Position numbers and translations under genes: made by a program | The notes under the pieces: generated by a model | Database searches by the model: none | What the model was told of the DNA's origin: nothing | What the model saw: the letters and a program-made list of their open reading frames with translations, nothing else | In this document: positions 7,306 to 39,842 of the stretch, piece after piece | Numbering within the stretch: position 1 is the stretch's first letter | Layout: the number at the start of each line of letters is the position of its first letter | DNA from: Naegleria gruberi | Taxonomy: Eukaryota | DNA: 64,000 bases | NCBI GenBank assembly: GCA_000004985.1 | Contig: GG738904.1 | Strand: one strand, 5' to 3'

Positions 7306-7513
7306 ATGACTCAAGTCTCTAAAGGTTTGTGTAATGATCAAAGTTTGCTAATAATTGTAATAGAAATATTTTCTGATGATGTAATTTATGAAATTATTTC
7401 CTATTTATGTGATGATTGGAAATTCGTATTATTAAATTGCGTAATGGTAACAAAACAATGGTTGAACGTCATCCGAGATCGATCCGAGCTTTCAATGATG
7501 GCGAATAATCATT
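7306..7513 (+). CDS. F-box-like protein, N-terminal fragment truncated by the gap
   Basis: ATG at 7306. The peptide ...QSLLIIVIEIFSDDVIYEIISYLCDDWKFVLLNCVMVTKQWLNVI fits the F-box pattern (L..E.L..I..YL......L..V.K.W). The frame runs into N at 7514. Confidence 0.45.
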
Positions 7514-13500: not shown

Positions 13501-13723
13501 NNNNNNNNNNNNNNNNNNNNNNNNNNNNNNNNNNNNNNNNNNNNNNNNNNNNNNNNNNNNNNNNNNNNNNNNNNNNNNNNNNNNNNNNNNNNNNNNNNNN
13601 NNNNNNNNNNNNNNNNNNNNNNNNNNNNNNNNNNNNNNNNNNNNNNNNNNNNNNNNNNNNNNNNNNNNNNNNNNNNNNNNNNNNNNNNNNNNNNNNNNNN
13701 NNNNNNNNNNNNNNNNNNNNNNN
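7514..13723. other. Assembly gap (6210 N)
   Basis: Run of n characters. Confidence 1.
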
Positions 13724-14154
13724 CCCTAACCCAAACCCAAACCCAAAGCCAAACCCAAACCCAAACCCAAACCCAAACCCAAGCCCAAACCCAAACCCAA
13801 ACCCAAACCCAAACCCAAACCCAAACCCAAACCCAAACCCAAACCCAAACCCAAACCCAAACCCAAACCCAAACCCAAACCCAAACCCAAACCCAAACCC
13901 AAACCCAAACCCAACCCAAACCCAAACCCAAACCCAAACCCAAACCCAAACCCAAACCCAAACCCAAACCCAAACCCAAACCCAAACCCAAACCCAAACC
14001 CAAACCCAAACCCAAACCCAAACCCAAACCCAAACCCAAACCCAAACCCAAACCCAAACCCAAACCCAAACCCAAACCCAAACCCAAACCCAAACCCAAA
14101 CCCAAACCCAAACCCAAACCCAAACCCAAACCCAAACCCAAACCCAAACCCAAA
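13724..14154 (-). repeat. Second, internal telomere-type array, (CCCAAA)n of about 72 units, in the same orientation as the terminal array
   Basis: It starts immediately after the gap. Variant units (ccctaa, caaagc, caagcc, one cccaa) sit in the left part. It is perfect up to the junction ...cccaaac|taaaaatag. Degenerate telomere-like remnants (aaacccaacgttcaaaccctagccc) follow to about 14200. Confidence 0.9.
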
Positions 14155-15022: not shown

Positions 15023-16101
15023 CTAGATATTATTGAGCACATTCTCCATCTCTATTCTTTCAATTTCCTCCGTTGTAAAGTTTCCTTTCATTGGAATAAA
15101 CACATGATCGTAAAAGGCCTTGAACCAATAACTCACTGGACAACATCTATTAAAATTCTCTTCAGAGCCTGTATGTACTCCTATTACTGATCGATCAAGA
15201 ATTACATTCTCCTTAAAGTCTCTCCAATTGCTATAATTTTCACAACAAGGAAGAACAGCACCGCCTGAAGAGCCTGGAAATGAGCTGGCGTTATAGTGTT
15301 TACAACATGTTTTTTCGTTAGTATCAACAAATTTTCCAAAGCTAATATTTTTACACTCCAACTCAAACATACTCTTTAAGGCAATAAGATTTGTGTGATA
15401 ATCTAAATGTTGTTCTAAAGTTGTTACATCTTTCTCAGTTGGCATGCCTTGAAAGGAAAGAATAGACATGTTATAATCATGTTCTGATTGAGGGTTGAGC
15501 TTTGAAGGACTTGGAATAAGGTATGATTCTGGAAAATGTTGTTCATCTAATACTATATCGATTGGTACTTCCATTTTCATCAAAACCCAATCTTTGTTTG
15601 GATGTTCCTTTACATTTTCATCCTCTTTCAGATCTGATTTTGCAAGAATGGTGCAATTCATGGATCTGGCACTTAACGGCTCAAACCTATGATTCTTCCC
15701 TAAAATTCCTTTAATCATTCTTAAAGAAAGTTGCACTACTTCATTATTGTATTCATATTCAAAAGGAAGAGTGTTATGCAAGCATGTCACAAAGTAATAT
15801 TCCCAAATAGTGTCGAGTTTGTTTGGAGGAGCAACAAGGAAGCCAGAACCCCGAATTGGAACTCTAACATCAATTTGTTTAGAATTAACACCTTGATAAA
15901 AACAAACTACATCAACAACAGCATTAAAAACATCCAGATTATCCTTTGCAGATTTTAAATCATAACAACTACAAATTCTGGGATAGGTTGTTAATCGGAA
16001 GGGATTGAGGCAACCTGTTAAATCCTCAAAACAATTCCTTGATTTTTCATCAACAATTAACATCTCCTCCGACACAGTGGTAGAGTACTTATTCATCGAT
16101 G
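15023..16101 (-). CDS. Trypsin-fold (S1/PA clan) serine peptidase-like protein, paralog A; its 5' end abuts a 50-N gap
   Basis: Candidate catalytic triad: YYFVTCLHN (His), KDWVLMKM (Asp, compare DIALLKL) and FPGSSGGAV (GxSGG Ser). It is about 95% identical to paralog B. No signal peptide is evident. Confidence 0.65.
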
Positions 16102-16810: not shown

Positions 16811-17851
16811 TCAACTCTGAATCCTAACCAAACCCTCTATTCTTTCAATTTCCTCCGTTGTAAAGTTTCCTTTCATTGAAACAAACACATGATCGTAAAA
16901 GGCCTTGAACCAATAACTCACTGGACAACATCTATTAAAATTCTCTTCAGAGCCTATATGTATTCCTATTACTGATCTATCAAGAATAACATTCTCCTTA
17001 AAGTCTCTCCAATTGCTATAATTTTCACAACAAGGCACCACAGCACCGCCTGAAGAGCCTGGAAATGAGCTGGCGTTATAGTTACATGTTTTTTCGTTAG
17101 TATCAACAAATTTTCCAAAGCTAATATTTTTACACTCCAACTCAAACATACTCTTTAAGGCAATAAGATTTGTGTGATGTTCTGATTGAGGGTTGAGCTT
17201 TGAAGGACTTGGAATAAGGTATGATTCTGGAAAATATTGTTCATCCAATACTACATCAATTGGCACTTCCATTTTCATCAAAACCCAATCATTGTTTGGA
17301 TGTTTCTTTACATTTTCATCTTCTTTCAGACCTGATTTTGCAAGAATGGTGCAATTCATAGATCTGGTACTTAATGGCTCAAACCTATGATTCTTCCCTA
17401 AAATTCCTTTCATCATTCTTAAAGAAAGTTGCACTACTTCATTATTGTATTCATATTCAAAAGGAAGAGTGTTATGCAAGCATGTCACAAAGTAATATTC
17501 CCAAATAGTGTCGAGTTTGTTTGGAGGAGCAACAAGGAAGCCAGAACCACGAATTGGAACTCTAACATCAATTTGTTTAGAATTAATACCTTGATAAAAA
17601 CAAACTACATCAACAACAGCATTAAAAACATCCAGATTATCCTTTGCAGATTTTAAATCATAATAACTACAAATTCTGGGATAGGTTGTTAATCGGAAGG
17701 GATTGAGGCAACCTGTTAAATCCTCAAAACAATTCCTTGATTTTTCATCAACAATTAACATCTCCTCCGACACAGTGGTAGAGTACTTATTCATCGATGG
17801 TTTCATAATTTCAATGTCATTGATTGGAATAGATTCTGCTGGTGAGAACAT
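16811..17851 (-). CDS. Trypsin-fold serine peptidase-like protein, paralog B (tandem duplicate of A)
   Basis: ATG at 17851, 346 aa, with the same H/D/S motifs as A. Relative to A it has an in-frame 81-nt deletion (27 aa, DYNMSILSFQGMPTEKDVTTLEQHLDY), a 6-nt indel, and a different last 7-8 codons. Confidence 0.7.
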   Translation of the reverse strand: MFSPAESIPINDIEIMKPSMNKYSTTVSEEMLIVDEKSRNCFEDLTGCLNPFRLTTYPRICSYYDLKSAKDNLDVFNAVVDVVCFYQGINSKQIDVRVPIRGSGFLVAPPNKLDTIWEYYFVTCLHNTLPFEYEYNNEVVQLSLRMMKGILGKNHRFEPLSTRSMNCTILAKSGLKEDENVKKHPNNDWVLMKMEVPIDVVLDEQYFPESYLIPSPSKLNPQSEHHTNLIALKSMFELECKNISFGKFVDTNEKTCNYNASSFPGSSGGAVVPCCENYSNWRDFKENVILDRSVIGIHIGSEENFNRCCPVSYWFKAFYDHVFVSMKGNFTTEEIERIEGLVRIQS

Positions 17852-26365: not shown

Positions 26366-29300
26366 ATGCAAGTTTCAGAACAACAAGTATCTGTAGTACT
26401 AACTCATCAACCACAATCATCATCAATATCTGAAGCGGATAATAATAATAATAATAATACCATTAACAATATAGATAATAATAATAATAGCAATAATAAT
26501 AATAATAATATAGAGGAAGATAATGATAATAATAATAATATTTACATGCTTTCATTCAATAATAGTGGATTAACACCTGCATTACCTGATCCGAGTCCTT
26601 CACCTCCACTTAAATCAACTGTTGCAGTAGTTGGTACATCATCACAACAACAAAACATGTCGAAATTATATTCCTCTCCTCCGAATAACATTAACAATCA
26701 ATTAGATTATTCACCAGTGAGGATTAGAACCATCAATTCGGCGACATTACCAACCAATAATAATATTAACAATAATAATGAAGACCGATCACTGATGATG
26801 ACAACAACAACATCTTCATCAACTGCACCTCCTCCACCTAGTTCTTATCAATATCCAATTCCAACAAGACCTACTACTACTAAATCTTCATCCGTGAATG
26901 AGAGTAATAATATGATGGAGGACAATTTCCCCAACACCATAGAAAGTAATGTGCGAACACAAGAACATTCCCAACAACAAACACACTACAAATCCTATCA
27001 TCACAATAATGAAAGAGAAGGAGAACGAGCTTCTTACTATCATCACTCCTATCCATCACAAAATTCCATAATGATGACAAATAATCATAATATCGAAAAT
27101 TGGAAAGGCTTGAAGGAAAACAGCAACAATCTATCATCCGCAGAAATTCAAAAAGAACAAGCGAACTTGGTTTACGGCACTCAATACCGCCAAAAGAATA
27201 GAAGTACACAACCACCTAGCAGCGCTTCTTACTTAGGATCAGTTGTTGAACGAGAAGAAAGAGGAGACGAAGAAGAAGAAGATTATCGTGTCTATCATCA
27301 TCAGCAACAACCACAGCAACAACAATATTTGAGAGAGAACTATTATCCTTCTCATCAGGGTAGTAGTACTACGTTGCCAAGCACTACTTCAATCTTGTTG
27401 CCAAGCCACGAAGCAAGGAATATCCAAAATTATAACAACCCTTCGCTACAAATAATTAATCAAAAGAATACCTCCACAAGTTCAACTTCACCTTCTTTAA
27501 ATTTTGCTACAGGTTCGTCTTCACAACAACCATTGCACGGAAGAAGAAATAGCAATTATCATCTGTACGATAATAATAACTATCACCAACAACACCAATA
27601 CGTGGAGAGAAATAATAACAATTTTCCAACAACTTCTCTCCATCAACGAACAACACCAACAACAATAGCAGAATATCAAGTTGGAGCTCCTAGTTATTCT
27701 AAACAAAGTTCAATGCAACAACAACCCTTTGTCATTCAGCCAAGTATGCAGCCCTCATCTGGAATACCGTCCTTTCACCAAGTTCACTCATCCTCCTCTG
27801 CCACCAATTCCTTCCATGTACCTTCCAATTATCAACAACATCATCATCATCAACCTCCACCACCACAACACTATCAACCACTTCCTCCGTCATCATCATC
27901 CTCATCAAATTATTTGAATCCTCCACACCAACAACAACAACAATCATCCTACTCTTCACCAAACAGTAACCAAACTAACTCATCCGAACCAAAATTACGT
28001 GTCTATAATTCAACATTAAAAGTTCCAGAAGGAATTTTTTCATACGATAACACAACACTAACTTGTGAACCTCATGGATTTAAGCCAAATGATAGAAGAG
28101 GAGCTCCACAAACAACTCACAGTGTCTACGTGAGTGATGTATTAGTAGTTACTTGTGATTTGGTTAACATGTCGAATCAACCAGGTGTTTTTCAAAATTG
28201 TACTGCGAGATTGGTTCATTTGATGGGAAAGAATGCTAAAAAGAAGAGAAAGGAAGGAGTCAGTGATCAAGATGATGGTTTAGACTCGGAGGATGATGAT
28301 TTGGATGATGGAAAGAAGAAGAAAAAGAAGAATAAGAAGAAGGATCAAGAAGATTCACTTGATGGTGATTTTGTTACTGATTTTTCACAGGCAGGAATGT
28401 TAGAGTCTTTTGAATTATTATCGGAACAACCTTGTCAAGAAAATGTTCAGAAAGGAAAGATTGTTTCCTCCCTCAAGGTTCCTCGTGTTAGGGGAAGAGA
28501 TTGTAAAACAAAGACTGGACAAATTCAAGTTATTAGATTTAAAGGAACAGAGAGAGAACATATTATTGCTGTGAGTGACTTGTTCTGGATAAGATCTAGA
28601 ACAAGAACAGAGATGGAAGTGAGAAAGTTCAAGAAACAACAGCAACAAACTCCACAACAATCATTGCCATCTCATCAACCACCTCAACAACAACCAATTT
28701 CTGTTCAATCACATGAAACTTCCAATCTTTCTTTGCATCATCATGCACAACAACTTTCTCATCCACCAACAATTCCATCTTCAAGTTTAAATCCTCCTCG
28801 TGAAAATTATCATAATCCACAATGGCCAAATATGCCAAATATTGTACAACCAAATTCACCAAGTACAAATGAGCATGCTGGTCTTCCTCCTAAAAAGAGA
28901 AGGAATAATAGTCCAGGAGGTGGTAATACACCAAACACTTATAGAGTTCCTTCAAATCCAGCTGCTTCAATTGTTCACTCATCAACAGGATATTTCCCCT
29001 CAAACAATATTCAACATCAAGAGAATGGTAAAGTACCAAATCTACACGATTCTCCTTCTCTTAGTCATCATCATCATCACGTGCCTTATCAACCATCGAG
29101 GAATGAACCAACTTATCATGAATTACTACAACGAGTTCACACATTAGAAGAAAAGTTGAATAGACTTGAAAGTAAATTGACTAGAGCTGGACATTTGTCA
29201 CCTGAGTTCCCAATGCCACCTGATAGTCAAACATTTTCTCCATTCCTCCCTAGTTCTGCAATTCAGCCACGTCCTGTTGAACCACCTAAAACTTTTGCAC

Positions 29301-29539
29301 CTTTCCCAATTGATGTTTTCATTAAAGACGATAAGAGAGGAGAAAACCCAACATTGCCTTCAGTGGTTTCGTCAGATTCCCAACCAGCAATTTTTAATCC
29401 AAAATCACCACTTCCAAGTTTCCCTTTTGATCCATCTGATTCATTCTTGAAGAATAGTTTCTCATCACCACCAGCTTTTACAAATCCAACATCGAGCAGT
29501 TCATCCGAGAGTGGAGGTGGCATGAAGAGAGAACGTTAA
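26366..29539 (+). CDS. Large low-complexity (N/Q/S/P/H-rich) protein of unknown function
   Basis: Single ORF of about 1057 aa from ATG 26366. It has poly-N, poly-Q and poly-H runs, a central non-repetitive segment (KLRVYNSTLKVPEGIFSYDNTTLTCEPHGF...QIQVIRFKGTEREHIIAVSDLFWI), an acidic/KKKKKKNKKK NLS-like insert and a short heptad segment (YHELLQRVHTLEEKLNRLESKL). Confidence 0.6.
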   Translation: MQVSEQQVSVVLTHQPQSSSISEADNNNNNNTINNIDNNNNSNNNNNNIEEDNDNNNNIYMLSFNNSGLTPALPDPSPSPPLKSTVAVVGTSSQQQNMSKLYSSPPNNINNQLDYSPVRIRTINSATLPTNNNINNNNEDRSLMMTTTTSSSTAPPPPSSYQYPIPTRPTTTKSSSVNESNNMMEDNFPNTIESNVRTQEHSQQQTHYKSYHHNNEREGERASYYHHSYPSQNSIMMTNNHNIENWKGLKENSNNLSSAEIQKEQANLVYGTQYRQKNRSTQPPSSASYLGSVVEREERGDEEEEDYRVYHHQQQPQQQQYLRENYYPSHQGSSTTLPSTTSILLPSHEARNIQNYNNPSLQIINQKNTSTSSTSPSLNFATGSSSQQPLHGRRNSNYHLYDNNNYHQQHQYVERNNNNFPTTSLHQRTTPTTIAEYQVGAPSYSKQSSMQQQPFVIQPSMQPSSGIPSFHQVHSSSSATNSFHVPSNYQQHHHHQPPPPQHYQPLPPSSSSSSNYLNPPHQQQQQSSYSSPNSNQTNSSEPKLRVYNSTLKVPEGIFSYDNTTLTCEPHGFKPNDRRGAPQTTHSVYVSDVLVVTCDLVNMSNQPGVFQNCTARLVHLMGKNAKKKRKEGVSDQDDGLDSEDDDLDDGKKKKKKNKKKDQEDSLDGDFVTDFSQAGMLESFELLSEQPCQENVQKGKIVSSLKVPRVRGRDCKTKTGQIQVIRFKGTEREHIIAVSDLFWIRSRTRTEMEVRKFKKQQQQTPQQSLPSHQPPQQQPISVQSHETSNLSLHHHAQQLSHPPTIPSSSLNPPRENYHNPQWPNMPNIVQPNSPSTNEHAGLPPKKRRNNSPGGGNTPNTYRVPSNPAASIVHSSTGYFPSNNIQHQENGKVPNLHDSPSLSHHHHHVPYQPSRNEPTYHELLQRVHTLEEKLNRLESKLTRAGHLSPEFPMPPDSQTFSPFLPSSAIQPRPVEPPKTFAPFPIDVFIKDDKRGENPTLPSVVSSDSQPAIFNPKSPLPSFPFDPSDSFLKNSFSSPPAFTNPTSSSSSESGGGMKRER

Positions 29540-30851
29540 ATGAAGTGAAATAAAAAATTAATTGTAAATTCAAATATGAAAATTGAAGTTTAGTTTGTAA
29601 TATGTTTGAGAATCCAACAAGTTCAAAGATATTAATGGTCCTTCCACCTTGTGTGTCATGTACTCTAGTGTAAAAAAATCAAAAAGGCTGTGTGAAAAGT
29701 GAGCTTAACTTTACAACATGTGATCGTTCAATGCGTGCGTACGATCTCCGATCTATTGAGAAGAAACCAGTTGTTGAAAATTGCAAACTTGAAGATTTAA
29801 CGTTTCGAAAAAAAATTCATGAGTAGTAACAAGTAGGCCGCTAATTTGCTTGCTAGAAAAGACTCTGATCACACACTATGTAAGTCATCATTCTTAAATA
29901 TCTTGGCAAGATATTAATTTCTACATTTCACCAATTTGCTTGTAAAAATTTACAAATTGCAATTTTAATGATCCAATGATAATAATAATGATCATCATCC
30001 GATACCTAATTAACTTGATCATATTAATACTACCATGATCATCAATGATGATATTGTACACTTTGTATGCAAATTGTCGTGATGAAAAATCTTGTCAAAC
30101 ACTTTTGGATTAATTTCCAAATATGGACTCTTTAATATTGGTCCTTTTTCTTGCATTACTCTCTGTGTTGATCGTCACCAAAACACTCAATTGGTTCTTT
30201 CTCTATCAACATTCCATTCAATATTGCATTTCCTCTCCTTTCTTAACCCAATTGACCAAAATCTTGAAAAAATCGATGAAATTTCTTATTGGGCTCTTGT
30301 TGTTCTTTGTTTGTTATTCGTGGTATTCTTCTTTCAAAATACTTGCCATTGCTCCGAATGAAAACTTTGAAAAATCCTTGCAATATCGGAATGCTTCCTC
30401 TTTCCAATTTCATATCAAATCTTCCATCCTTGCTGCTTGTCTAAATTCCCACCACTCTAACAATGCAAATACTTGCAAATCTTCCTCCACTCATAACCAT
30501 CGTGCTGATGTTAATGATGCTGAACCAATTTTTGAACTTTCCTGTCGTTGCACAACTTTAAATCCGATGAATAATGATCCTTCTCTCACCACCAAAAACA
30601 ACCTCGACCAAATATTGCAACAATACCAAAATTCATTGACTTTGGACTCCCCGAATCAATCGACCACCCCCAACTACTACGGCTCTTGTTCTGTTACTGA
30701 CAATCGTGATGATGATGCTTCTGGTGCTTCTTCCTCTGCTTCTTCCTCTGCAACTGCTACCTTGATTAATACCAACCAAAATAGTACTAAAAACTCTCTC
30801 AAAGAAGTAGAAGAAAAAACAACAACTCCCTCCAAACAACTCTTAGAAATA

Positions 30852-32723
30852 ATGAATAAGAACGACTTGTATGCACTTGCTCCAAATCACTTCCTCTACA
30901 ATCCAATGTTGAATAAGGATACCGCATTCACAGTGGAGGATCGTGAAAAATTGGGTCTTCGTGGATTGTTGCCACCACACGTTGAGACCATTACTCATCA
31001 ATTGGTGAGATGCTTGAGACAATTCCGTAACTTTAAAAATCCATTGGACAAGTATGTTTACTTGATGAGTTTGCAAGGTAGAAATCAAACCTTGTTCTTT
31101 AAATTGTTGATTGATAACATGGTTGAAATGTTGCCAATTGGTAAGTTGATGATAATAATTTTGCATTCCAAAGTTTTTAACACATTCTCTCTCATCTGTG
31201 TGAAATTTACTTGTTATTTTGCTTAATACAAATAATAATGCTTCGGAACCACCACAACAAAACACAACATTCATTTACCACTCTTTTTAACATTATAAAC
31301 AGTCTACACACCAACTGTTGGTGATGCTTGTCTTCAATTCGACCAAATTTGGAGAGTTGCTCAAGGCATGTACATCTCATTGGAAGATAAGGGATCAATT
31401 TCTGCAATTTTGAAGAATTGGGAACCAAAGCAACCAGATATTATTGTCGTTTCCGATGGTTCACGTATTTTGGGTCTTGGTGATTTGGGTGCTAATGGTA
31501 TGGGTATTCCAATTGGTAAATTGAATCTCTATGTTGCTGCTGCTGGTTTCCATCCAGATAAGACTTTGCCAATTTGCATTGATGTTGGTACTAACAATCC
31601 AGGATTGTTGGAAGATGATTTATATTTGGGATTGAAGAGAAAGCGTGTTCGTGGACAAGAATTCTTTGATTTCATGAAGGAATTTATGATTGCTGTCAAG
31701 ACTACATGGCCAAATTGTTTAGTCCAATTCGAAGATTTCTCAAATGATGTCTGTTTCGATTTATTGGATCAATATCGTAATGAACAATTGTGTTTCAATG
31801 ATGATATCCAAGGTACTGGTGCTGTCATTGTTGCTGGTTTCATCAATGCTGCCAAGATTACTGGTAAGAGAACTTATCAACACAAATTATTATTTATGGG
31901 AGCTGGTTCTGCTGCCACTGGTGTCGCTGATCAATGTGTTGGTGTCATGAAATTGCAAGCTGAAGAAGATGGATTGAGCAAGGAAGAAATTGATGCCATG
32001 TCTGAACATTGGGTTTATTTGGTCGATTCTAAGGGATTAGTTACACAAACTCGTTCTGATTACGAAGAAATGCCACATCACAAGAAGAAGTATGCCAAGA
32101 AGGGTGATGAAACTTTGGGTAACTTCCAATCCAAATCTCTTTTGGAAATTGTTCAAAAGACTCAACCAACTGCTCTCATTGGTCTCTGTGGTCAATCTGG
32201 TGTTTTCACTCAAGATATCATTGAAGAAATGGCCAAGATTAACCAAAAGCCAATCGTTTTTGCCTTGTCCAACCCAACTAAGAATTCTGAATGTACTGCC
32301 AAGGAAGCTATTGAATATTCAAGTGGAAGAGCTATCTTTGCTTCTGGTTCTCCATTCGAAGATGTTACTTACAATGGAAAGACTTATCAATTGAGTCAAG
32401 GTAACAATTTGTACATTTTCCCAGCTTTGGGTCTTGGTGCTGTCGTTACCAGATCAAAGCACGTTTCTGATGTTATGATTTTGAGAGCTGCTCAAACTTT
32501 GGCCGATCTCACAAGCCAAGATAGATTGGACAATGGATTGTTGTATCCAAGTTTGACAAATATCAGAGAAATTGCTCAAAAGATTGCTGTCCAAGTTGGT
32601 AAACAAAGTGTTAAGGAAGGTCTTTCTCAATTGACTGAAGAACAATTACCAAAATCTGAAGAAGAATGGGTTAAAATTGTTAAGGATTATGTATATACTC
32701 CAGATTATGAGTCCAAATTGTAA
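30852..32723 (+). CDS. Malic enzyme (NAD(P)-dependent malate dehydrogenase, decarboxylating)
   Basis: Exons 30852..31140 and 31303..32723, with a 162-nt GT-AG intron. The splice recreates LPI|VYTPTVGDACLQF. Other motifs: GLLPP, GIPIGKLNLYVAAAGF, FNDDIQGTGAV, FMGAGSAATG. The same frame stays open upstream to ATG 30123, a possible 243-aa extension. Confidence 0.9.
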
Positions 32724-33081
32724 ATATTTCAACAATTAATTTAAACCAACTATTATAAACATTTAATATTTCACTGATATTATTTCACACACTTTCAATA
32801 TATTCTCCATTCCAATCGCAACAGCGTCCAACCATACTCAATTCTGTCCAATTCTATCTAAATGCAACCTGAGGATCTCCTTCACAACCAAGCGCATCAA
32901 CCAAACACTAGTCCGACCAGCACTACGATCCTAGTGCACTTCAATTAATATCATGTCATGAAATCTCTCCACCGTATTACTTTTAAACAAAAAGAAAAAA
33001 AATCTCCAATTGTTAACTGTACAAATCTTTCATCTTTTTCCGAAAGTTAGAGAATAATTTGAAAGAGAAGGTGAACACAAA

Positions 33082-34089
33082 ATGACTAGTCAAGAGAGTA
33101 ATGATGGATCAATTTCCTATGGATGGTGGATTGCCACTCTTTTAATAGGAATTGTCCTGATGAGAATATTGCAATTAATTATGAAATTGAAAAGACAAAT
33201 AAGCAAGGCTGGTGGAACTCCTGGTTATTGGCAATTATTGGCTGAAGGCTTGTTTATCATGCCAATTCTTTCGCCCTATATTGCTCATGGTAATTTCCCA
33301 GTGATTCAAGGATTGATTGCTAAGGAGGAAGAGAGAGCTAAGGGAAGTGATGAAAAGCAATTGATTATTCGTGTCAGTACTCCCTATAGAAATAATTATG
33401 TAATTTGGGATAAGGATTCAGTGAAGGAAGTTTTAGTTACAAAATCATCATCCTTTCCAAAACCTTTGGATTTTTATGAACCTTTCAATATTTTCGATAA
33501 GGATGCTACTTCAATTTTGACAGCTGCCGATGGTCCAGTTTGGAAGAATCATAGACATGTGGTGGCTCCTTCATTCTCAACTGGTAATTTGGTTTTTATG
33601 AGTCAAGTGACTGTAAAGACAGTTGATGCATTGTTTAGAACAAAGTGGAATAAGTTATTGGACCAGGATAGTAAGGGATTCATTATGGATATGGAAGATA
33701 CTACAGCTGTCACTCTTCAAATTATTGGTGAAAGTGGATTTGGTATGGATTTTGGTGTTTTCGATGAAACTAGCTCTGATTCTAAAAAGTTTAGAGAAGC
33801 ATTGAATATTGTCGTGAGAGTTGACTATTATGCCAGATTCTTCCTTGCTAAAATCCCATTCCTTTACAATGCAGTTTCTGATTATACTGGAAATACAGAA
33901 GCTCTCAAGGTGATGAGTGAAAAGCTTGAACAATGCATTTCTCAAAGAGTAGCCGAATTCAAACAAGATCCAGAAAAACCAATGAATGATTTATTGTCGC
34001 TCCTTGTTAAGGCAAACATGATGGATGAAAAACTCACACTCAATGAATTGAAGAGTAACAGTTACATCTTCGTAGTTGCAGGTCATGAG
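33082..34089 (+). CDS. Cytochrome P450 (copy 1), 5' portion, ending inside the I-helix motif ...FVVAGHE; interrupted by a 5.09-kb insertion
   Basis: N-terminal TM anchor (WWIATLLIGIVLMRIL) and an alignable paralog at 55239. The frame reads gca ggt cat gag then tat tga. The missing continuation TTATTMQW... is found at 39234. Confidence 0.8.
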
Positions 34090-34618
34090 TATTGAAAATC
34101 AGAAGGTGTTCTTAAAGATGGTCACTGGTGCCATCAATGGTTTGATTCGTGGATTTTGGTTAAAGATATTATTCCACTTGAAGAACATTCTTCAATTATT
34201 AGGAGATGTTACAGCATGCTATGTGGAAAGTACCGTTAATATTTCCAAAGATATTTTGGAAATGTACAGTTTCATAATGAAGGAATCATTTTTGGAAAGA
34301 TTAAATTCAAGAATTGAGGAGAGAAATCTTTTATGTATTGATTTTGAAATTGTTAACAATGGATTGGTAGATAGGAATGCAGAGTGTTTTAACTCATGGT
34401 ATGAAAATGTATCTAAACATCTTATTGATTGGTCAAGTAAGGCTGTAAGTAATCGATTTGCAGAGTTTACAGAGTTAGTGGATGAAATTTTTGGTCAAGT
34501 TAAGAATGATTATGCAATGATTGCTGATAAAACTATTGAAAAGAGAACAATGGAGTATAATTTTATTACTGAAAAGAAGAGAAGATTGACAGAATTGATC
34601 AAAGAGTTAAAAAAGTAG
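34085..34618 (+). CDS. Hypothetical helical protein (177 aa), first ORF of the insertion
   Basis: Its ATG is the ATG inside the left CATGAG junction repeat. The peptide is MSIENQKVFLKMVTGAINGL...KKRRLTELIKELKK. No family recognised. Confidence 0.35.
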   Translation: MSIENQKVFLKMVTGAINGLIRGFWLKILFHLKNILQLLGDVTACYVESTVNISKDILEMYSFIMKESFLERLNSRIEERNLLCIDFEIVNNGLVDRNAECFNSWYENVSKHLIDWSSKAVSNRFAEFTELVDEIFGQVKNDYAMIADKTIEKRTMEYNFITEKKRRLTELIKELKK

Positions 34619-34675
34619 ATTGGTAATGAGTAAATTGAATTGTGTCTGTGCAATTCTGATTGTATTCTTGTAAAG

Positions 34676-35070
34676 TGGTGATGGTACCTGTCAGGTACCG
34701 TCACAGGTACTTGGCAGGTACGATTTTTACCATCACAGGTACCGTCACAGGTACTTGGCAGGTATCACAGGTACCATCAGGTACCATCAGGTACCATCAC
34801 AGGTACCGTCACAGGTGCAAATGGTACCTGACAAGTACAATCACAGGTACCGTCACAGGTATCTGAATTTCCTCACAGGTACCATCACAGGTACTTGGCA
34901 GGTATCACAGGTACCATCACAGGTACCATCACAGGTACCGTCACAAGTACTTGGACCATCACAAGTACCCTTACAAGGACTTGTAAGGTGCTCAACACGT
35001 ACCTACAGTGTCTGACAAGTATGGTACCTCACAATAACCATCACAGCTACAACAAACACCATAACAAATA
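34676..35070. repeat. Degenerate minisatellite, about 12-bp unit CACAGGTACC(R)T with a palindromic GGTACC core, about 28-30 units
   Basis: Direct reading: ...ggtaccgtcacaggtacttggcaggta...ggtaccatcacaggtaccatcacaggtaccgtcaca... It lies between the convergent 3' ends of ORF 34085-34618 and gene 35100-36299. Confidence 0.85.
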
Positions 35071-35099
35071 CTTTTTATATCTCCTCCAATCAACTATAT

Positions 35100-36299
35100 T
35101 TATTTGAAATATTTGGATTTCTTAATAGGTCTATGGACATTATGATCATTTTCTGAATCAGAACTAATACCACCTCTATCTGAAGAATCTTCTTCAACAT
35201 CTTCTTCTTCATCATCCTCTTCAACTTCACAATGATCAGCATTTCCAAAGCAAATATTGTACCAAATTGGAGGACCTTCATCAGACTTGTTACAATCATC
35301 TTTATCCATTTGCTTTTCAAAGAATAACTCCATTTCAAAGGCATCAAGTTCTTCATTCAATTGAATAACATCCTTAACAGGTGGTTCTATGATGGCTTCC
35401 TCTTCAATATAACCATTCTCATTGTAACGATTGATGAGAAGAACTGTTTCCTTTGAGGTGTCAAATATCTCTTCTTCCTCCTTCTCATTAAAATCAATAC
35501 TTTCATCATCTGCTATAGTTGCAGATTCCTTCTTTTCATACTCCACAATTAAATTCAAACCACTAACATCTGGTTTGATTACAAGACTGGAAAGCGTGTC
35601 TTCATTTAGAGATGGCAAATCATCATATGGGAAAACAATACTTTGAGTTTCACTAACGGATGAGTATCCATCTTGATCTGCTCTAGCCATTTCGACAGAA
35701 TCATCATCAGTGAGTGCATCATCTTCTGTTAGAATCAATGGTTCATTAAATACATCAACTTGTTCTTCCATCTGAGTTTCTGCACTTGATATAATCAATA
35801 AAGGTTGAACCAATTCATATCTCTCATTGGTGTAAGAGTAAAGGTCAATGTCATCATTGTTTAATAACAAGTTTAACAATGTTGAATTACTAGTCTGTGA
35901 AAGCACTTTTCCCTTCTTACTAAACTCTCCAACAAATGCTTGGAAATTGAATTCACTATTACATTGTTCCAACTCTTTGAAATAAATCAAAGAAGGGTTC
36001 ATTTCAAGTAAATCTGCCAAATCTTCTAATTTACTATCCATGGATAAAAAGTCATCATGCTTCTTCTCCTTAAAAATCAAAAGTAAGAGACAAAGTGCAA
36101 AATAATCACAAGAGTAATCTGCTGATAATCCATTAATATCATCTTGATTGATAGGATCGTTACCAAGCCAAAAAGATGTCAATTCCTTCCTTAGCTTGAT
36201 ATCCAAATAACAGAAATCACTGACAACTTCACTATAAAATTTCTTCTTTACTAATTCTTCTACTAAACACCACTTGTTGAAATATGTATTGTACAACAT
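35100..36299 (-). CDS. Acidic hypothetical protein (399 aa) inside the insertion
   Basis: Uninterrupted ORF from ATG 36299 with a D/E-rich C-terminal half (EVEEDDEEEDVEEDSSD). It is divergent from the Myb-endonuclease gene across a 345-bp spacer containing a (TA)n tract. Confidence 0.5.
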   Translation of the reverse strand: MLYNTYFNKWCLVEELVKKKFYSEVVSDFCYLDIKLRKELTSFWLGNDPINQDDINGLSADYSCDYFALCLLLLIFKEKKHDDFLSMDSKLEDLADLLEMNPSLIYFKELEQCNSEFNFQAFVGEFSKKGKVLSQTSNSTLLNLLLNNDDIDLYSYTNERYELVQPLLIISSAETQMEEQVDVFNEPLILTEDDALTDDDSVEMARADQDGYSSVSETQSIVFPYDDLPSLNEDTLSSLVIKPDVSGLNLIVEYEKKESATIADDESIDFNEKEEEEIFDTSKETVLLINRYNENGYIEEEAIIEPPVKDVIQLNEELDAFEMELFFEKQMDKDDCNKSDEGPPIWYNICFGNADHCEVEEDDEEEDVEEDSSDRGGISSDSENDHNVHRPIKKSKYFK

Positions 36300-36644
36300 G
36301 ATGGATTATTCCTTTTTTTTCAAAAACAAAAGCTTTCACACAACCTCGAGTCGTGTGAAATGTCTCACACTCTAATATTTTAATATTTTTATAAGGCTTG
36401 AATATATATATATATATATTGAAAAGGGATTGACCGAAACTGGAAGACACATTAATTGGATATCTAAAGAGACCAAACAAATTTTCCTCAGAATTGAAGA
36501 GTCACGTCGCTACGTCCCTCAAGACATCCACACAACTTTGCAAATTAATACAATTGAGAAAAAAAAACTACTTTTATTTTCGACTCAACTTTGTTACAAG
36601 TAACAACACACATCAAATTCCAACACAGAACTCAATATAGCAGA

Positions 36645-38966
36645 ATGATAAGAAAAAACTGGTTAAAAGAAGAAGAAGATCTTTTGGTCAAATTGGTAAA
36701 GGAAAAAGGCCACAATTGGACTGAAATTGCTCCCAACTTCGATGTTACTCCAAATGCCTGCCACAAAAAGTATAAGGATTTGTTAAAGAATCTTGGCAGG
36801 AAAAGATCGTTCTGGACTGATGAAATGAAAGCTAATCTCCTTAAATTAGCAAAAGAATATGCCGATAAAGGAATAGAGAAATGGAAGATTATTGAGGAAA
36901 AATTAGGAAAAGAAGCTAAAGCTTGCCAACAGCATTTTTATTATTTAGTCAAACAGCACGGGTTGGATTCTAATGATTTCAACAGCGTCAGACCATTTTG
37001 GACCATGGAAGAGAAGCGCGAATTGACTGAGTTAGTCAATTTGCATGGAAGGAAGTGGAAGAAAATTGAGAAACTAATTAGCTGCAACAGAGATGCTCAT
37101 TCTTGTCAGAGCCAGTTTATGCTATTAGAAAGTAGACAGAATGATCCAATTGAAAAGAAGTTGAACGATATCTTTCAAGCAACGACTTCAGAGACAGATT
37201 TGAATGAAATCTCTCTTTACGAATTCTTCAATATCCCAACAAGTAGATACAATGGGGTTCCAGCATCGACTTTGTTGGTGGATCAAGCAGATGAAGTTGA
37301 TGAAGAAACATTTCATCGTTCTTACATGGCTGGAGATACTGAATTTAGTGTACGTGAGGTTGCAACTGGTAGATTGGTCAGAAAAACCATTGAGGAGATT
37401 TATCTTTCCAGTGGAACATATGAAACATATAGTATTGAATCTGGATTTAATGTGGAAGAAATTGGTAAGTTTCGTTTCAATTACTATTTTCAAAGAATAA
37501 TAATAATGAAAGAATGTAAATTGTTTCCAGCAAATGAAGTATTAGAGTTGAGTGCTACTTGTTTCAAAGCAAAATTATATTTCAATGAATGTGCTCGAAT
37601 TGTTGAAGAGAAACGTTTCATATTTTCCGAACAAGTTCAAGTCCGTCCAGATGAGTGCAGTAGTGTGAGATTACCTGTATCAGATCTTCAAGACAATATG
37701 TTCATCATTAATAACTATCAATTGAAATCCAAGGAAAAGCTTGTAAGAACATCATTACCATGTGGTCAACTTACTGACACCACCCAAACAAAAGAATGTA
37801 AGTATTTTATGAATTATTCTCATAATATTTTAAAGATTTTGACATTTTGTTCAGAACTTTCCCAACTCTAGTTGACTCCAAAGACAAACAGGGAGTCATG
37901 GTTCAACTATTGGGAGCCTATTTAGCAGATGGTGATGGAGGATACTTTAAATTGTATTTTAATGCCAAAAATGAGCAAGAACTTACCTATTATTTTACAG
38001 ATTTCTTAAAAGAAATTTGTGAATTGAATTCAGAGACAATAAGAGAGGATCTTAAATTCAAGAAAGAGGAAGAGTATGTCACCATTAAGCTCAATGATAA
38101 GAATGCTGACAAGGATATTGAACGAGTCTTACAAAATGGTTATCAAATATCCGGGTCCATACTTGTTGCACCTGCATGGTATGTTTTTCACTTTCAATAC
38201 ATTTTTACTAGTAACAAATAGTACTGGCTTACACAGATTTTTAAAAGAAATAGAATTGTTATGTAATAAGTATAATGGCAGTTACCAAACTAGAAAGAAT
38301 TTCTCTTCCATCTTCAACATTACAAATTTTGGTATGTTTAGCTTGTACAAATTTTTCGAAGGTTCTGTACAAGGAGATGGCACATTAGAGAGTAATCGTG
38401 TAACGTTTGGTCAGAATTGTTCAATTTCAGATACTCACCAACAGTACTTTAATCAGGTCCACCATTGTGCAACCATGCTTGGGTTAAAGACTGGCGTGGG
38501 TAAAGTGTGTGAAGAAACTACAGGTTTGAAAATGACTGGTAAGAACATGACCATTTTTGAAAGTGAAGGACTTGAGAAAAAGAAAGTAAATGCAGATGTT
38601 GTGTTTAGACCATTTAATCTTACAGTTCAAAGATTAATAGGTGAATCAATGAAGAAGATGTACTGTTTCAAGAAGAGTAATCACTCCTTCCCAATGTTTA
38701 ATGGAATGATAGTGCAAAATGTTGATACTGATCTAGTTTCTGCTAAAATATGTTATGGGAATAGATGGGAAATTCGTGAAATGGACAACTATGAATCTGC
38801 TGCCACTTTCTGCTTGAAGAAATATATTGCTTCCTTAGGGTTTCCAAGTGACCGTATGACAAGAAATGCTGTAAGAAGATTAATACTAAAAATAGAAGGA
38901 ATAGTATCTGTTAAAAGAAAGCAAAAATCAAACAAGGAATCAAACAAGAAAGTTAAAACACAATAA
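36645..38966 (+). CDS. 3x Myb/SANT repeats fused to an intein-derived Hint domain with an embedded double-LAGLIDADG homing-endonuclease domain (HO-like architecture), 746 aa
   Basis: Exons 36645..37797, 37836..38178, 38222..38966; the 38-nt and 43-nt introns keep frame. Myb repeats: KNWLKEEEDLLVKLVKEKGHNWTEIA, SFWTDEMKANLL...KWKIIEEKL, PFWTMEEKRELTELVNLHGRKWKKIE. Intein block A YMAGDTEFSVREVATGRLVRKTIEEI; LAGLIDADG-1 QLLGAYLADGDGGY; LAGLIDADG-2 LYKFFEGSVQGDGT; blocks F/G KSNHSFPMFNGMIVQNV. Confidence 0.75.
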
Positions 38967-39060
38967 CATTTCAATTAAAGAATATATTTACTGAACTTTA
39001 TTAAATGACTTTTTATTTCTGAATAAACAAAAGTATATTGAGCACTTTTGCATCCATTTG

Positions 39061-39178
39061 AAAATTGACAATCATTTCTGCTGAAATGGTCATGTAAGAA
39101 GTATGAATTATGTCATTCTGGAAACTCTTCGTATTCATCCACCTGTAACATGTGTTTAGAGTTGCTAAGAAGACAACC
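39061..39178 (+). pseudogene. Orphan, frame-broken cytochrome P450 fragment (K-helix ExxR region) at the right edge of the insertion
   Basis: It reads ...MNYVILETLRIHPPVTCV*, then after a frame shift RVAKKTTT. At nucleotide level it is closer to P450 copy 2 (atgaactatgtc...attatggaaact) than to copy 1. It is out of order relative to the host gene. Confidence 0.55.
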
Positions 39179-39233
39179 ACATGAGGTTCGTGTTTTATAA
39201 TTAATTTTACAAGTGTTTAACAAAATATTTAAG

Positions 39234-39842
39234 ACGACTGCCACAACCATGCAATGGTTAATGTACGAATTGTCCAAGCGTCCAGAAGCTCAACAAAAGG
39301 CCAGAGAAGAAGCAATCAGAATTGGAGGAGGTGACAATGTTTTGAGAGCTCCAGATTTTGATGATTACAACAATATGGACTATATTCATGGTTGTGTAAT
39401 GGAATGCTTACGTCTCCATCCACCAGTCGTTTCCATGGTAAAAACCTGTGCCAAATCTACCAAAATTGGAAAAACAAGCATTCCAAAGGGATCTTGCATC
39501 TATGTAAATGCCAAGGCCTGTCACTTGTACGGTGAAGATTTTAACACCACTGAATTTACTGGTGCTCAATTCGCTCCAGAAAGATTTTTGGATAAGGATT
39601 TCAAACAAAAGGTTCAAACAAGTGGAGCATGGTTCCCATTCAATATGAGTAATAGAAAATGCATTGGTTACATGTTTGCCCAAATTGAATTGTGTATCAT
39701 GTTGTGTAGAATGTTGCAATTTTATGAATTCAAATTGTTGAATGATGAAAGTAAACCAGCTGAGAAGGTTGAAGATCTTCCTGGTATTACCTTTAGACCA
39801 TCTTCTAATTTGAAGGTTTTGGTAACAAGAAGAACAAAATAA
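39234..39842 (+). CDS. Cytochrome P450 (copy 1), 3' portion
   Basis: It begins TTATTMQWLMYEL, the continuation of AGHE|TT. It carries ECLRLHPP (ExxR), FAPERF and the heme loop FPFNMSNRKCIGYMFA. It is preceded by catgag (39180-39185) and a 48-nt GT-AG intron (39186-39233). Confidence 0.8.
   Translation, partial: TTATTMQWLMYELSKRPEAQQKAREEAIRIGGGDNVLRAPDFDDYNNMDYIHGCVMECLRLHPPVVSMVKTCAKSTKIGKTSIPKGSCIYVNAKACHLYGEDFNTTEFTGAQFAPERFLDKDFKQKVQTSGAWFPFNMSNRKCIGYMFAQIELCIMLCRMLQFYEFKLLNDESKPAEKVEDLPGITFRPSSNLKVLVTRRTK

What the first reader, a model, noticed from the sequence alone, without database searches (positions are those of the whole stretch)
34084..39185. A 5.09-kb gene-carrying insertion splits a P450 exactly within the I-helix AGHE|TT motif, flanked by a CATGAG direct repeat
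P450 copy 1 reads ...FVVAGHE (gca ggt cat gag, 34078-34089), and its continuation TTATTMQW... resumes at 39234. Just upstream of that continuation sit a second catgag (39180-39185) and the native 48-nt intron gttcgt...tttaag. Paralog copy 2 has the same acatgag|gttcgt junction. Deleting 34090-39185 restores a colinear 538-aa P450. The inserted DNA carries the Myb-Hint-LAGLIDADG gene, a 399-aa acidic ORF, a 177-aa ORF, a minisatellite and a stray P450 fragment. I found no canonical GT-AG pair that removes the whole insert while keeping AGHETT in frame. The host gene is therefore either inactivated or rescued by unusual splicing. I saw no terminal inverted repeats. The 6-bp repeat could be a target-site duplication or repair microhomology. 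The combination looks like a mobile or DSB-repair-captured endonuclease cassette sitting in a conserved coding motif, as homing elements do.
Basis: partly seen in the sequence, partly recalled or inferred. Interest (0 to 1): 0.88.

Follow-up and report, generated by a model that had tools for sequence, protein, structure and literature searches.

The report
Nuclease-gene cassette inserted in a P450
In the amoeba Naegleria gruberi, a 5.1-kb three-gene cassette is inserted at the most conserved motif of a cytochrome P450 gene; its largest gene looks like a relative of the yeast HO/WHO site-specific nucleases, a closely related strain has the same gene uninterrupted, and the 27 bases around the site are heavily rewritten between the two, which suggests a selfish homing-type element of a kind so far described only in yeasts.

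Summary
The window is Naegleria gruberi nuclear DNA. P450 copy 1 reads ...FVVAGHE (to 34089), stops at 34093-95 and resumes at 39234; the joined 538-aa protein is colinear with intact orthologues in N. lovaniensis and N. fowleri.

An empty-site allele exists. A metagenome contig (L006) is 98% identical to 6 kb of upstream sequence and runs straight from AGHE into TTATT. It lacks 34090-39233, which is the insert and also the 48-nt "native" intron.

The two alleles differ at 10 of the 27 nt spanning the site, against 0.6% elsewhere in the gene. All nine codons differ, mostly at third positions, as in a conversion tract or a diversified nuclease target.

The cassette is repeated. Its 399-aa ORF (99% identical) and its Myb gene (95%) are neighbours on another scaffold, and the other strain holds a truncated 89% relic.

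The Hint-LAGLIDADG call rests on motifs only. Pfam, the PDB, hhalign and two AlphaFold runs gave no support, and the family has three members, all in N. gruberi.

Most likely this is a recent, gene-disrupting insertion of an HO/WHO-like selfish cassette, made by break repair and probably driven by its own nuclease. Passive capture of the segment at an unrelated break is the main rival.

The parts
33082..34089 (+). P450 copy 1, 5' part (336 codons, ends ...FVVAGHE). The NCBI model P0003 / XP_002671536 adds Y and the stop at 34093-95.
34066..34089 (+). Left part of the hyper-divergent patch. With 39234-39236 it has 10 differences in 27 nt against the empty allele L006 (window ATCTTCGTAGTTGCAGGTCATGAG|ACG, L006 GTCATGGTTATTGCCGGCCACGAA|ACT).
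34084..34089 (+). Left CATGAG. Its ATG at 34085 is the start codon of ORF177.
34090..39233 (.). The 5,144 bp that are present in the window and absent from the empty allele L006/L007.
   Evidence: L006 position 6007 matches window 34088 and L006 position 6009 matches window 39234
34085..34618 (+). ORF177. It has no known domain and no database match, but its codon usage looks coding (0.28 in frame against -0.57 and -0.63 out of frame).
34683..34950 (.). Minisatellite with a 12-nt unit, TACCATCACAGG, that contains GGTACC. It is also present next to the relic copy in L008.
35100..36299 (-). ORF399, an acidic protein with no known domain (XP_002671610). A 99%-identical paralogue, P0071, lies on the 573-kb scaffold, and an 89% truncated relic lies in L008.
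36645..38966 (+). Gene for the 724-aa Myb plus intein-like/LAGLIDADG-like protein (P0001 / XP_002671538). Introns at 37465-37530, 37798-37835 and 38179-38221. This splicing translates exactly to P0001.
36645..37139 (+). Three Myb/SANT repeats (aa 1-165).
   Evidence: PF13921 E 3.8e-20; PF00249 E 5.9e-20
37323..37352 (+). YMAGDTEFSV, which resembles intein block A but has no Cys nucleophile.
   Evidence: read by eye against the verified PI-SceI sequence; coordinates; no profile support
37907..37939 (+). LLGAYLADGDG, the first LAGLIDADG-like motif. It is conserved as MVGLYMADG in the 33%-identical paralogue P0075.
38352..38381 (+). FFEGSVQGDG, the second LAGLIDADG-like motif, 135 aa after the first.
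38679..38720 (+). NHSFPMFNGMIVQN, which resembles intein blocks F/G. The penultimate His is Gln and the next residue is Val.
39103..39178 (+). Stray, frameshifted P450 K-helix fragment (MNYVILETLRIHPPV / VFRVAKKTTT) from the copy-2 lineage. The similarity may run on to 39229.
39180..39185 (+). Right CATGAG. ACATGAGGTTCGT at 39179-39191 is identical to the copy 2 microexon plus its donor.
39186..39233 (+). 48-nt GT..AG segment at the HE|TT phase-0 position. Copy 2 and the metagenome relative L005 have an intron at that position, but the segment is absent from the empty allele.
39234..39842 (+). P450 copy 1, 3' part (TTATTMQW... to the stop). It has no separate gene model in the protein database.
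55239..56928 (+). P450 copy 2. It has four introns and a 7-nt microexon, ACATGAG, at 56333-56339. It has a 37-aa deletion after 56569, and the stray fragment in the insert carries the missing segment.

Best explanation
This is a recent insertion, polymorphic between strains, of a roughly 5.1-kb selfish three-gene cassette into the I-helix codons (AGHE|TT) of a dispensable P450 paralogue of Naegleria gruberi.

The cassette carries ORF177, ORF399 and a 724-aa protein. That protein has three N-terminal Myb repeats fused to a degenerate, non-splicing intein-like domain with two LAGLIDADG-like motifs. The architecture is that of yeast HO and WHO nucleases, with Myb repeats in place of their zinc finger.

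Proposed mechanism:
1. The nuclease makes a double-strand break in a 20-30-bp target spanning the I-helix codons.
2. The break is repaired by copying the cassette from another locus.
3. Short stretches of foreign P450 sequence are co-converted at both junctions. This accounts for the 27-nt patch and for the copy-2-derived fragment at the right end.
4. The P450 copy is left split and most probably non-functional.

Shown: the insertion, the empty allele, the repeated cassette, the divergent patch and the Myb repeats.

Inferred: the LAGLIDADG fold and nuclease activity, that this protein made the break, and that the P450 is dead.
For: - The window is N. gruberi (P0001, P0003).
- Empty allele: L006 is 98.1% identical to window 28093-34088 and continues at 39234 (98.8%). 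It carries the same upstream malic-enzyme gene and an open 478-aa P450 reading AGHETTATT. The ENA and Logan assemblies agree.
- Orthologues in N. lovaniensis and N. fowleri are uninterrupted here, so the insertion is the derived state.
- Patch: 10 of 27 nt differ at the junction, against 9 of 1,407 nt elsewhere in the gene (binomial 9e-16; 1e-12 after correcting for position). All nine consecutive codons differ. Seven of the ten changes are at third positions, and the amino-acid changes are conservative.
- A 28-bp target under diversifying selection is what has been described for WHO nucleases (bioRxiv 10.64898/2026.08.13.744650). Asymmetric short conversion tracts are described in PMC7282813.
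- The cassette is repeated. P0071 (99%) and P0002 (95%) have adjacent UniProt accessions on the 573-kb scaffold. L008 carries a truncated 89% relic joined to unrelated DNA.
- Motifs colinear with PI-SceI: block-A-like at aa 227, LAGLIDADG-like at 387 and 521 with both acidic residues, and block F/G-like ending ..IVQN at 643. The best hhalign and Smith-Waterman alignments run from the second motif to the C-terminal Asn of PI-SceI. The first motif is conserved in the 33%-identical paralogue P0075.
- A host-gene fragment lies just downstream of the nuclease gene, as in WHO elements.
Against: - No profile or structure method recognises Hint or LAGLIDADG. Pfam, NCBIfam and PHROGs give nothing at E up to 10. 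The PDB gives nothing. hhalign against PI-SceI gives E 0.14 and probability 0.4%. The Smith-Waterman z-score is 1.6. AlphaFold pLDDT was 33 and 38, and Foldseek returned only noise.
- The insertion appears to destroy its host gene, which true homing elements avoid.
- The second cassette copy is apparently not inside a P450 of this subfamily: no such protein from the 573-kb scaffold appeared. There is therefore no evidence of repeated homing to the same site.
- At the amino-acid level the empty allele's patch (YVMVI) looks more derived than the window's (YIFVV). The patch may therefore have arisen in the empty lineage, by ectopic conversion unrelated to the cassette.
- Only one empty allele is available, of unknown provenance.
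Confidence: 0.45

Rival explanations
1. Passive capture. A random double-strand break in the P450 was repaired by end-joining or microhomology-mediated template switching. That repair stitched in a 5-kb segment duplicated from the 573-kb scaffold plus a short piece of P450 copy 2. The Myb protein is only a passenger gene with some other cellular role.
For: - CATGAG is a 6-bp microhomology at both junctions.
- The right end is a mosaic containing a copy-2-derived fragment, as in multi-template repair.
- There are no terminal repeats and no transposase.
- The nuclease identity of the protein is unproven.
- The host gene is disrupted.
Against: - It does not explain why nine consecutive codons at exactly this site differ between the alleles in a pattern that preserves the protein.
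- It does not explain why the captured segment happens to encode a protein with two LAGLIDADG-like motifs and intein-like end blocks.
- It does not explain why a decayed relic of the same cassette exists elsewhere in another strain.
Confidence: 0.33
2. The whole insert is, or lies inside, a giant spliceosomal intron carrying nested genes, and the P450 is still expressed as a full-length protein.
For: - In-frame GT-AG combinations exist. One uses donor GA|GTATTG at 34089, acceptor 39172, a 13-nt microexon and the 48-nt intron, and gives AGHE-QPHE-TT.
- Copy 2 shows that this lineage can splice a 7-nt microexon at the same place.
- Both halves are still open reading frames.
Against: - No combination restores AGHETT. 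Every one alters the catalytic I-helix motif.
- The introns modelled in this window are 38-66 nt.
- The left boundary GAG|TATTGA has no GT.
- Database gene models stop at AGHEY*, and no full-length transcript-derived protein from this genome was found.
- In-frame combinations are expected by chance in about one case in five.
Confidence: 0.08
3. A conventional DNA transposon with a 6-bp target-site duplication.
For: CATGAG flanks the insert, and the cassette is present in more than one copy.
Against: - There are no terminal inverted repeats, even short ones.
- No transposase, integrase or reverse-transcriptase domain is found in any ORF.
- The empty allele does not contain a single CATGAG.
Confidence: 0.06
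4. An assembly artefact in the reference draft: a chimeric join that placed a segment of another scaffold inside the P450.
For: The window is a draft with three long N gaps, and a near-identical copy of part of the insert exists elsewhere.
Against: - Both junctions lie in gap-free sequence.
- The two cassette copies differ (95% and 99% at protein level), so they are not a collapsed repeat.
- The insert carries unique material, namely ORF177 and the stray fragment.
- The flanks on both sides are the expected ones.
Confidence: 0.03

Closest known systems
WHO elements of Torulaspora and Lachancea yeasts (Coughlan et al. 2020, PMC7282813; Osborne et al. 2026, bioRxiv 10.64898/2026.08.13.744650)
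   Same: - Both are free-standing nuclear genes for an intein-derived, non-splicing LAGLIDADG-type protein fused to an extra DNA-binding domain.
- Both sit at a specific site in a conserved protein-coding host gene.
- In both, a fragment of host-gene sequence lies just downstream of the nuclease gene.
- In both, alleles of the host gene differ sharply in a roughly 27-28-bp stretch at the site.
- In both, copies also occur at other loci and decay into relics.
   Different: - The DNA-binding domain here is three N-terminal Myb repeats, not a C-terminal zinc finger.
- The host is a P450, not FBA1, and it is left split rather than repaired by a replacement 3' half.
- The cassette carries two further ORFs and a minisatellite.
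- The organism is a heterolobosean amoeba.
- There is no detectable sequence homology to WHO, HO or VDE beyond motifs.
HO endonuclease of Saccharomyces
   Same: The proposed domain logic is the same: a degenerate intein without splicing residues, two LAGLIDADG motifs and an appended DNA-binding module, encoded by an ordinary nuclear gene.
   Different: HO is domesticated and cleaves MAT. Here the gene sits in a polymorphic insertion and nothing indicates a host function. Homology is not demonstrable.
VDE / PI-SceI intein in VMA1
   Same: The order and spacing of the blocks are similar. Here block A to the terminal Asn spans 416 aa, against 454 aa in PI-SceI. The LAGLIDADG motifs are 135 aa apart here, against 108 aa. 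The best alignments end on the intein's C-terminal Asn.
   Different: - There is no Cys1, no TxxH, His is replaced by Gln before the terminal Asn, and there is no downstream nucleophile.
- The protein is not in frame with, and not embedded in, a host protein.
- It is therefore not an intein.
Free-standing homing endonuclease genes of phages (intronless homing) (from general knowledge)
   Same: The endonuclease gene moves together with flanking DNA by break repair, without an intron or intein, and flanking markers are co-converted.
   Different: Those genes sit between genes rather than inside a coding motif, and they belong mostly to the GIY-YIG and HNH families.
Introns created by break repair or by transposon insertion (Daphnia parallel gains; Introners) (from general knowledge)
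   Same: Short direct repeats lie at the boundaries. Intron positions crowd around one site in the gene family: HE|TT, GG|A, +8 nt, and the 7-nt and 17-nt microexons.
   Different: The 5.1-kb insert has no splice sites that restore the reading frame.

Membership tests
LAGLIDADG endonuclease | Two LAGLIDADG motifs, each ending in an acidic residue followed by Gly, about 90-130 aa apart | tested here: met
   LLGAYLADG (aa 387) and FFEGSVQGDG (aa 521) are 135 aa apart. The first is conserved in P0075. Patterns written after the fact to fit these motifs each have a chance of about 5e-7 per position. This is evidence at motif level only.
LAGLIDADG endonuclease | Significant match to a family profile (Pfam LAGLIDADG_1/2/3, Hom_end) or to a solved member | tested here: not met
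   No hit in Pfam at E up to 10, NCBIfam, PHROGs or PDB sequences. hhalign against PI-SceI gave E 0.14. Smith-Waterman z-score was 1.6.
LAGLIDADG endonuclease | Alpha-beta-beta-alpha-beta-beta-alpha fold | tested here: inconclusive
   AlphaFold2 gave mean pLDDT 33 and 38. Foldseek on the model returned only designed proteins at E > 0.06.
LAGLIDADG endonuclease | Site-specific cleavage of a 14-40-bp target | not testable with these tools
   This needs a biochemical or in-vivo cleavage assay.
Intein (Hint domain capable of protein splicing) | N-terminal Cys/Ser, TxxH, C-terminal HN followed by Cys/Ser/Thr, all embedded in frame in a host protein | tested here: not met
   The block-A-like stretch starts YMAGDT, with no Cys. 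The C-terminal block reads IVQN followed by V. The protein is free-standing. There is no Pfam Hint or Intein_splicing hit.
WHO-type homing genetic element | The endonuclease gene lies next to a host gene that stays intact, because the element supplies a resistant replacement part | tested here: not met
   The P450 reading frame ends at AGHEY* and no intact copy is supplied.
WHO-type homing genetic element | Host-gene fragment(s) flank the endonuclease gene | tested here: met
   A 76-127-nt P450 fragment lies 137 nt downstream of the stop codon.
WHO-type homing genetic element | Allele-specific sequence divergence concentrated at the target site | tested here: met
   10 of 27 nt differ, against 0.64% in the rest of the gene. 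The direction and cause of the divergence are not established.
WHO-type homing genetic element | Sequence homology to WHO/HO proteins, including the C-terminal zinc finger | tested here: not met
   Only three homologues exist among 1.84 billion representative proteins, all in N. gruberi. The protein has Myb repeats instead of a zinc finger.
Homing genetic element (general) | Presence/absence polymorphism at one precise site in a conserved gene | tested here: met
   The window is filled and L006/L007 is empty.
Homing genetic element (general) | Recurrent occupation of the same site in independent genomes or paralogues | tested here: inconclusive
   The flanks of the second copy could not be read, because N. 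gruberi DNA is not in the searchable collections. There were no hits in JGI metagenomes or IMG/VR.
DNA transposon | Terminal inverted repeats and a transposase | tested here: not met
Spliceosomal intron | GT..AG boundaries whose removal restores the reading frame and the protein | tested here: not met
   No pair restores AGHETT. The in-frame pairs all alter the motif.
Group I / group II intron carrying a homing endonuclease gene | Ribozyme core recognisable by a covariance model | tested here: not met
   An Rfam scan of 33900-39400 at E up to 1 found only sub-threshold snoRNA and miRNA noise.

The most novel reading that the evidence does not exclude
Naegleria gruberi harbours an active nuclear homing-type element that arose independently of, or is only anciently related to, the yeast WHO/HO/VDE lineage. 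It is a Myb-guided LAGLIDADG nuclease that targets the I-helix codons of a P450 subfamily.

Recurrent cleavage would have driven an arms race visible in three ways:
- a rewritten 27-bp target in the empty allele;
- exchange of short tracts between P450 paralogues, including the fragment taken from copy 2;
- the crowding of introns and 7-17-nt microexons that split the target DNA while preserving the protein.

On this reading, introns act as resistance alleles against a homing nuclease.
Probability: 0.25. Interest if true: 0.92.

Novelty: new variant of a known kind. Interest (0 to 1): 0.74.

Why it matters
Outside organelles and rDNA, homing-type elements in eukaryotic nuclear genes are known as inteins (VDE) and, since 2020, as the WHO elements of a few yeast genera. 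HO is their domesticated descendant.

A structurally analogous cassette in a heterolobosean amoeba would show that this lifestyle is not a fungal peculiarity. It differs in three ways: a different DNA-binding module, a different host gene, and insertion that breaks rather than preserves the host gene.

It would provide a new, probably very specific, nuclease-plus-Myb scaffold. It would also be a natural case for asking whether site-specific nucleases promote paralogue conversion, intron gain and microexon formation at their targets.

Even under the passive-capture rival, the locus is a clean, datable example of a multi-template break-repair insertion, with an empty allele in hand.

Tried and rejected
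- Exact-protein look-ups for the N. gruberi proteins (399-aa ORF, P0001, P0002, P0075) found no contig. The second cassette locus and the 2.7-kb scaffold of P0075 therefore could not be read.
- Scans of JGI metagenomes (protein patterns, then a 26-nt exact DNA pattern) and of IMG/VR found nothing.
- Literature searches for the run and project accessions, and for Naegleria nuclear LAGLIDADG or intein genes, found nothing relevant.
- Structure prediction failed twice, once on the C-terminal 538 aa and once on the 239-aa core. The Foldseek search on the poor model was meaningless, as expected.
- The 48-nt intron and the 56-nt intron of copy 2 share only the donor hexamer. The alignment score was reached by 807 of 1,000 shuffles, so recent transfer of that intron from copy 2 is rejected.
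- The insert has no other copy or fragment elsewhere in the window.
- No sequence in the window resembles the patch of the empty allele.
- A group I or group II intron, and tRNA-linked integration, were considered and rejected.
- A Harbinger-type transposon (a Myb protein plus a DDE transposase) was considered and rejected, because ORF399 and ORF177 have no nuclease domain.

Full report
**What the window is.** The largest gene in the insert is 98-100% identical to a Naegleria gruberi predicted protein (P0001, XP_002671538, on a 297,120-bp scaffold). The upstream P450 piece is the 337-aa N. gruberi model P0003, which ends ...AGHEY*. The DNA is about 34% G+C, has short introns, and contains three long runs of N, so it is a draft assembly.

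**Checking the observation.**
- P450 copy 1 reads gca ggt cat gag at 34078-34089, followed by tat TGA.
- A second CATGAG lies at 39180-85. It is followed by a 48-nt GT..AG segment (39186-39233), and then by ACG ACT GCC... = TTATTMQW.
- Joining 33082-34089 to 39234-39842 gives an open 538-aa protein. It matches Pfam p450 over residues 96-522 (E 3.9e-63).
- That protein is colinear with single intact genes in N. lovaniensis (P0004, 61% identity over 98% of the length) and N. fowleri (P0005, 59%). Both read AGHETT without interruption and have an intron 8 nt further 3'.
- The two halves are therefore one gene, and the interruption is the derived state.
- Copy 2 (55239-56928) has the same ACATGAG|GTTCGT junction. 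There, ACATGAG is a 7-nt microexon between two introns.
- The insert has no terminal inverted repeats, no ribozyme-type intron and no tRNA.

**An empty allele.**
- The 90% cluster of P0003 contains a 478-aa protein (P0074) that reads straight through...SYVMVIAGHETTATTMQW....
- Its contigs come from one sequencing run (ERR1078381), assembled independently by ENA and by Logan.
- The 7,990-nt ENA contig (L006) carries the same upstream genes, including the 451-aa malic-enzyme ORF. It is 98.1% identical to window 28093-34088 and then continues at window 39234-39661 (98.8%). It is genomic DNA, because intergenic and intronic sequence is included.
- The contig ends in an Illumina adapter, not at a rearrangement.
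- A very close relative of the reference strain therefore has the site empty. What it lacks is 34090-39233 (5,144 bp): the 5.09-kb insert, the second CATGAG and the 48-nt intron.
- An intron at exactly this phase-0 position (HE|TT) exists in copy 2 and in a more distant metagenome relative (L005). So the 48-mer may be an old intron that the empty allele lost, or it may have arrived with the insert. I cannot decide between these.

**The patch.**
- Within the P450 coding sequence the two alleles differ at 19 positions. Ten of them fall in the 27 nt that span the junction: window ATCTTCGTAGTTGCAGGTCATGAG|ACG against L006 GTCATGGTTATTGCCGGCCACGAA|ACT. The other nine are spread over 1,407 nt.
- At the background rate the probability is 9e-16, or 1e-12 after allowing for every position in the gene.
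- All nine consecutive codons differ. Seven of the ten changes are at third positions. The three amino-acid changes are conservative (V/I, M/F, I/V).
- This is not what error-prone repair would leave. It looks like a short tract copied from a diverged but functional homologue, or like a target that has diversified while keeping its coding function.
- Compared with all relatives (YIFV[IV]AGHETT), the empty allele (YVMVIAGHETT) is the odd one at the protein level. Some or most of the change may therefore lie on the empty lineage.
- A patch of this size at the insertion point is what a LAGLIDADG-type target looks like. WHO nucleases recognise 28 bp of FBA1, and that stretch is under selection to diversify. 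Conversion tracts after WHO cleavage are short and asymmetric.

**What is in the insert.**
- ORF177 (34085-34618) starts at the ATG inside the left CATGAG. It matches nothing, but its codon usage looks coding.
- A minisatellite with a 12-nt unit follows.
- ORF399 (35100-36299, minus strand) is an acidic protein with no known domain.
- The 724-aa gene (36645-38966) has three introns, and the spliced translation equals P0001 exactly.
- At the right end lies a frameshifted P450 fragment (39103-39178, perhaps to 39229).
  - The fragment is closest to the copy-2 lineage: ungapped over 43 aa with N. fowleri P0007, score 103, against 68-81 for copy-1-type proteins.
  - Its first 24 nt match copy 2 at 22 of 24 positions, with one 9-nt gap. 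It then continues with LRIHPPV..., which is the segment copy 2 has lost. Copy 2 lacks 37 aa, including the ExxR arginine, directly after that point.
  - The two damaged P450 genes, 17 kb apart, have therefore exchanged material.

**The cassette is a repeated unit.**
- ORF399 has a 99%-identical paralogue (P0071), and the Myb gene has a 95%-identical one (P0002). Both lie on a 573,072-bp scaffold and have adjacent UniProt accessions (D2V8Z9 and D2V8Z8).
- The P0002 model lacks the second Myb repeat and the first LAGLIDADG-like motif, so that copy may be decaying.
- The other strain holds an 89%-identical relic of the 3' end of ORF399 plus the minisatellite. It is truncated and joined to unrelated DNA.
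- No P450 of this subfamily from the 573-kb scaffold appeared in the P450 search. That copy is probably not in a P450.

**What the 724-aa protein is.**
- Three Myb/SANT repeats are certain.
- The remaining roughly 560 aa match no profile in Pfam, NCBIfam or PHROGs, even at E = 10, and no PDB sequence.
- An exhaustive HMMER scan of 1.84 billion representative proteins found only P0002 and a third N. gruberi protein, P0075 (33% identity).
- AlphaFold failed twice.
- What remains is a motif argument:
  - YMAGDTEFSV...G....I (like intein block A, but without Cys);
  - LLGAYLADGDG, conserved as MVGLYMADG in P0075;
  - FFEGSVQGDG, 135 aa further on;
  - NHSFPMFNGMIVQN (like blocks F/G).
- These occur in the order and at roughly the spacing of PI-SceI, whose sequence I verified against PDB entry 1DFA/1VDE.
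- The best hhalign and Smith-Waterman alignments to PI-SceI run from the second motif to the intein's final Asn, but they are not significant (E 0.14; z 1.6).
- I rate 'LAGLIDADG-type nuclease derived from an intein-like ancestor' at about 0.7. It is certainly not a splicing intein.

**Most likely mechanism (confidence 0.45).**
- The cassette is a selfish element whose own Myb-guided nuclease breaks the I-helix coding sequence.
- Repair copies the cassette in, together with short foreign P450 tracts at the junctions.
- This resembles the WHO elements of yeasts in gene architecture, in the host-gene fragment downstream of the nuclease gene, in the divergent target patch and in the decaying extra copies.
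- It differs in that the host gene is not repaired. No GT-AG pair restores AGHETT, although 34 in-frame pairs exist, for example one giving AGHE-QPHE-TT through a 13-nt microexon.
- The P450 copy is therefore probably a young pseudogene. Both halves are still open only because the event is recent.

**Rivals.**
- Passive capture of a duplicated segment at an unrelated break (0.33). This explains the microhomology and the mosaic right end, but not the patch or the coding content.
- A giant intron with nested genes (0.08).
- A conventional transposon (0.06).
- Misassembly (0.03).

**Limits.**
- N. gruberi scaffolds other than this window could not be read with the tools.
- There is no expression evidence.
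- The provenance of the empty allele is unknown.
- The nuclease fold is unproven.

**Verdict.** The finding is real and more interesting than a simple gene disruption, because an empty allele and a rewritten target-sized patch now accompany it. The homing interpretation is plausible but not demonstrated.

Noticed in passing
window 56287-56395: P450 copy 2 encodes AGHETT across three exons. A 7-nt microexon, ACATGAG (56333-56339), lies between a 46-nt and a 56-nt intron. The N. fowleri orthologue (P0007, L003) has no introns at all.
   Followed up: partly
window 56537-56575 and 39103-39229: Copy 2 lacks 37 aa (LRLHPPV...IYS, including the ExxR arginine) directly after 56569, so it is probably non-functional. 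The stray fragment in the copy-1 insert is 22/24 identical to the 24 nt before that breakpoint and then continues with the missing segment. The deletion and the fragment are therefore probably linked.
   Followed up: partly
L005 1760-1855; L001 11087-11180; L002 7972-8085; window 39186-39233 and 56287-56395: Intron positions crowd within about 30 nt of the I-helix codons across this P450 family.
- HE|TT phase 0: copy 1, copy 2 and L005.
- GG|A: copy 2.
- F.|V: L005, whose only two introns flank a 17-nt exon.
- +8 nt: N. lovaniensis and N. fowleri.
In the window, no P450 has an uninterrupted GCNGGNCAYGARACNAC.
   Followed up: partly
window 34683-34950; L008 835-1097: A minisatellite with a 12-nt unit containing the palindrome GGTACC lies between ORF177 and ORF399. 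It is conserved next to the relic copy in the other strain. Its function is unknown. It does not match the c-Myb site YAACNG by eye.
   Followed up: no
window 15023-16096 and 16811-17851: A tandem pair of genes of about 350 aa on the minus strand shares 96% nucleotide identity over at least 650 nt, which points to a recent local duplication.
   Followed up: no
window ~1000-6000, ~7300-13900, ~59700-60900: Long runs of N (assembly gaps) generate spurious giant ORFs in the ORF list.
   Followed up: no
protein P0002 (N. gruberi 573-kb scaffold): The paralogous gene model lacks the second Myb repeat, the first LAGLIDADG-like motif and 40 aa before the second motif. Either the model is wrong or that copy is degenerating. 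The ORF399 paralogues are 99% identical, while the Myb-gene paralogues are only 95% identical.
   Followed up: partly
L001 4813-5883: In N. lovaniensis, a DDE_3 transposase gene lies about 4 kb upstream of the orthologous P450. The P450 neighbourhood there (WD40, rhomboid, RGS genes) is not syntenic with the N. gruberi window (malic enzyme, sirtuin-like gene).
   Followed up: no
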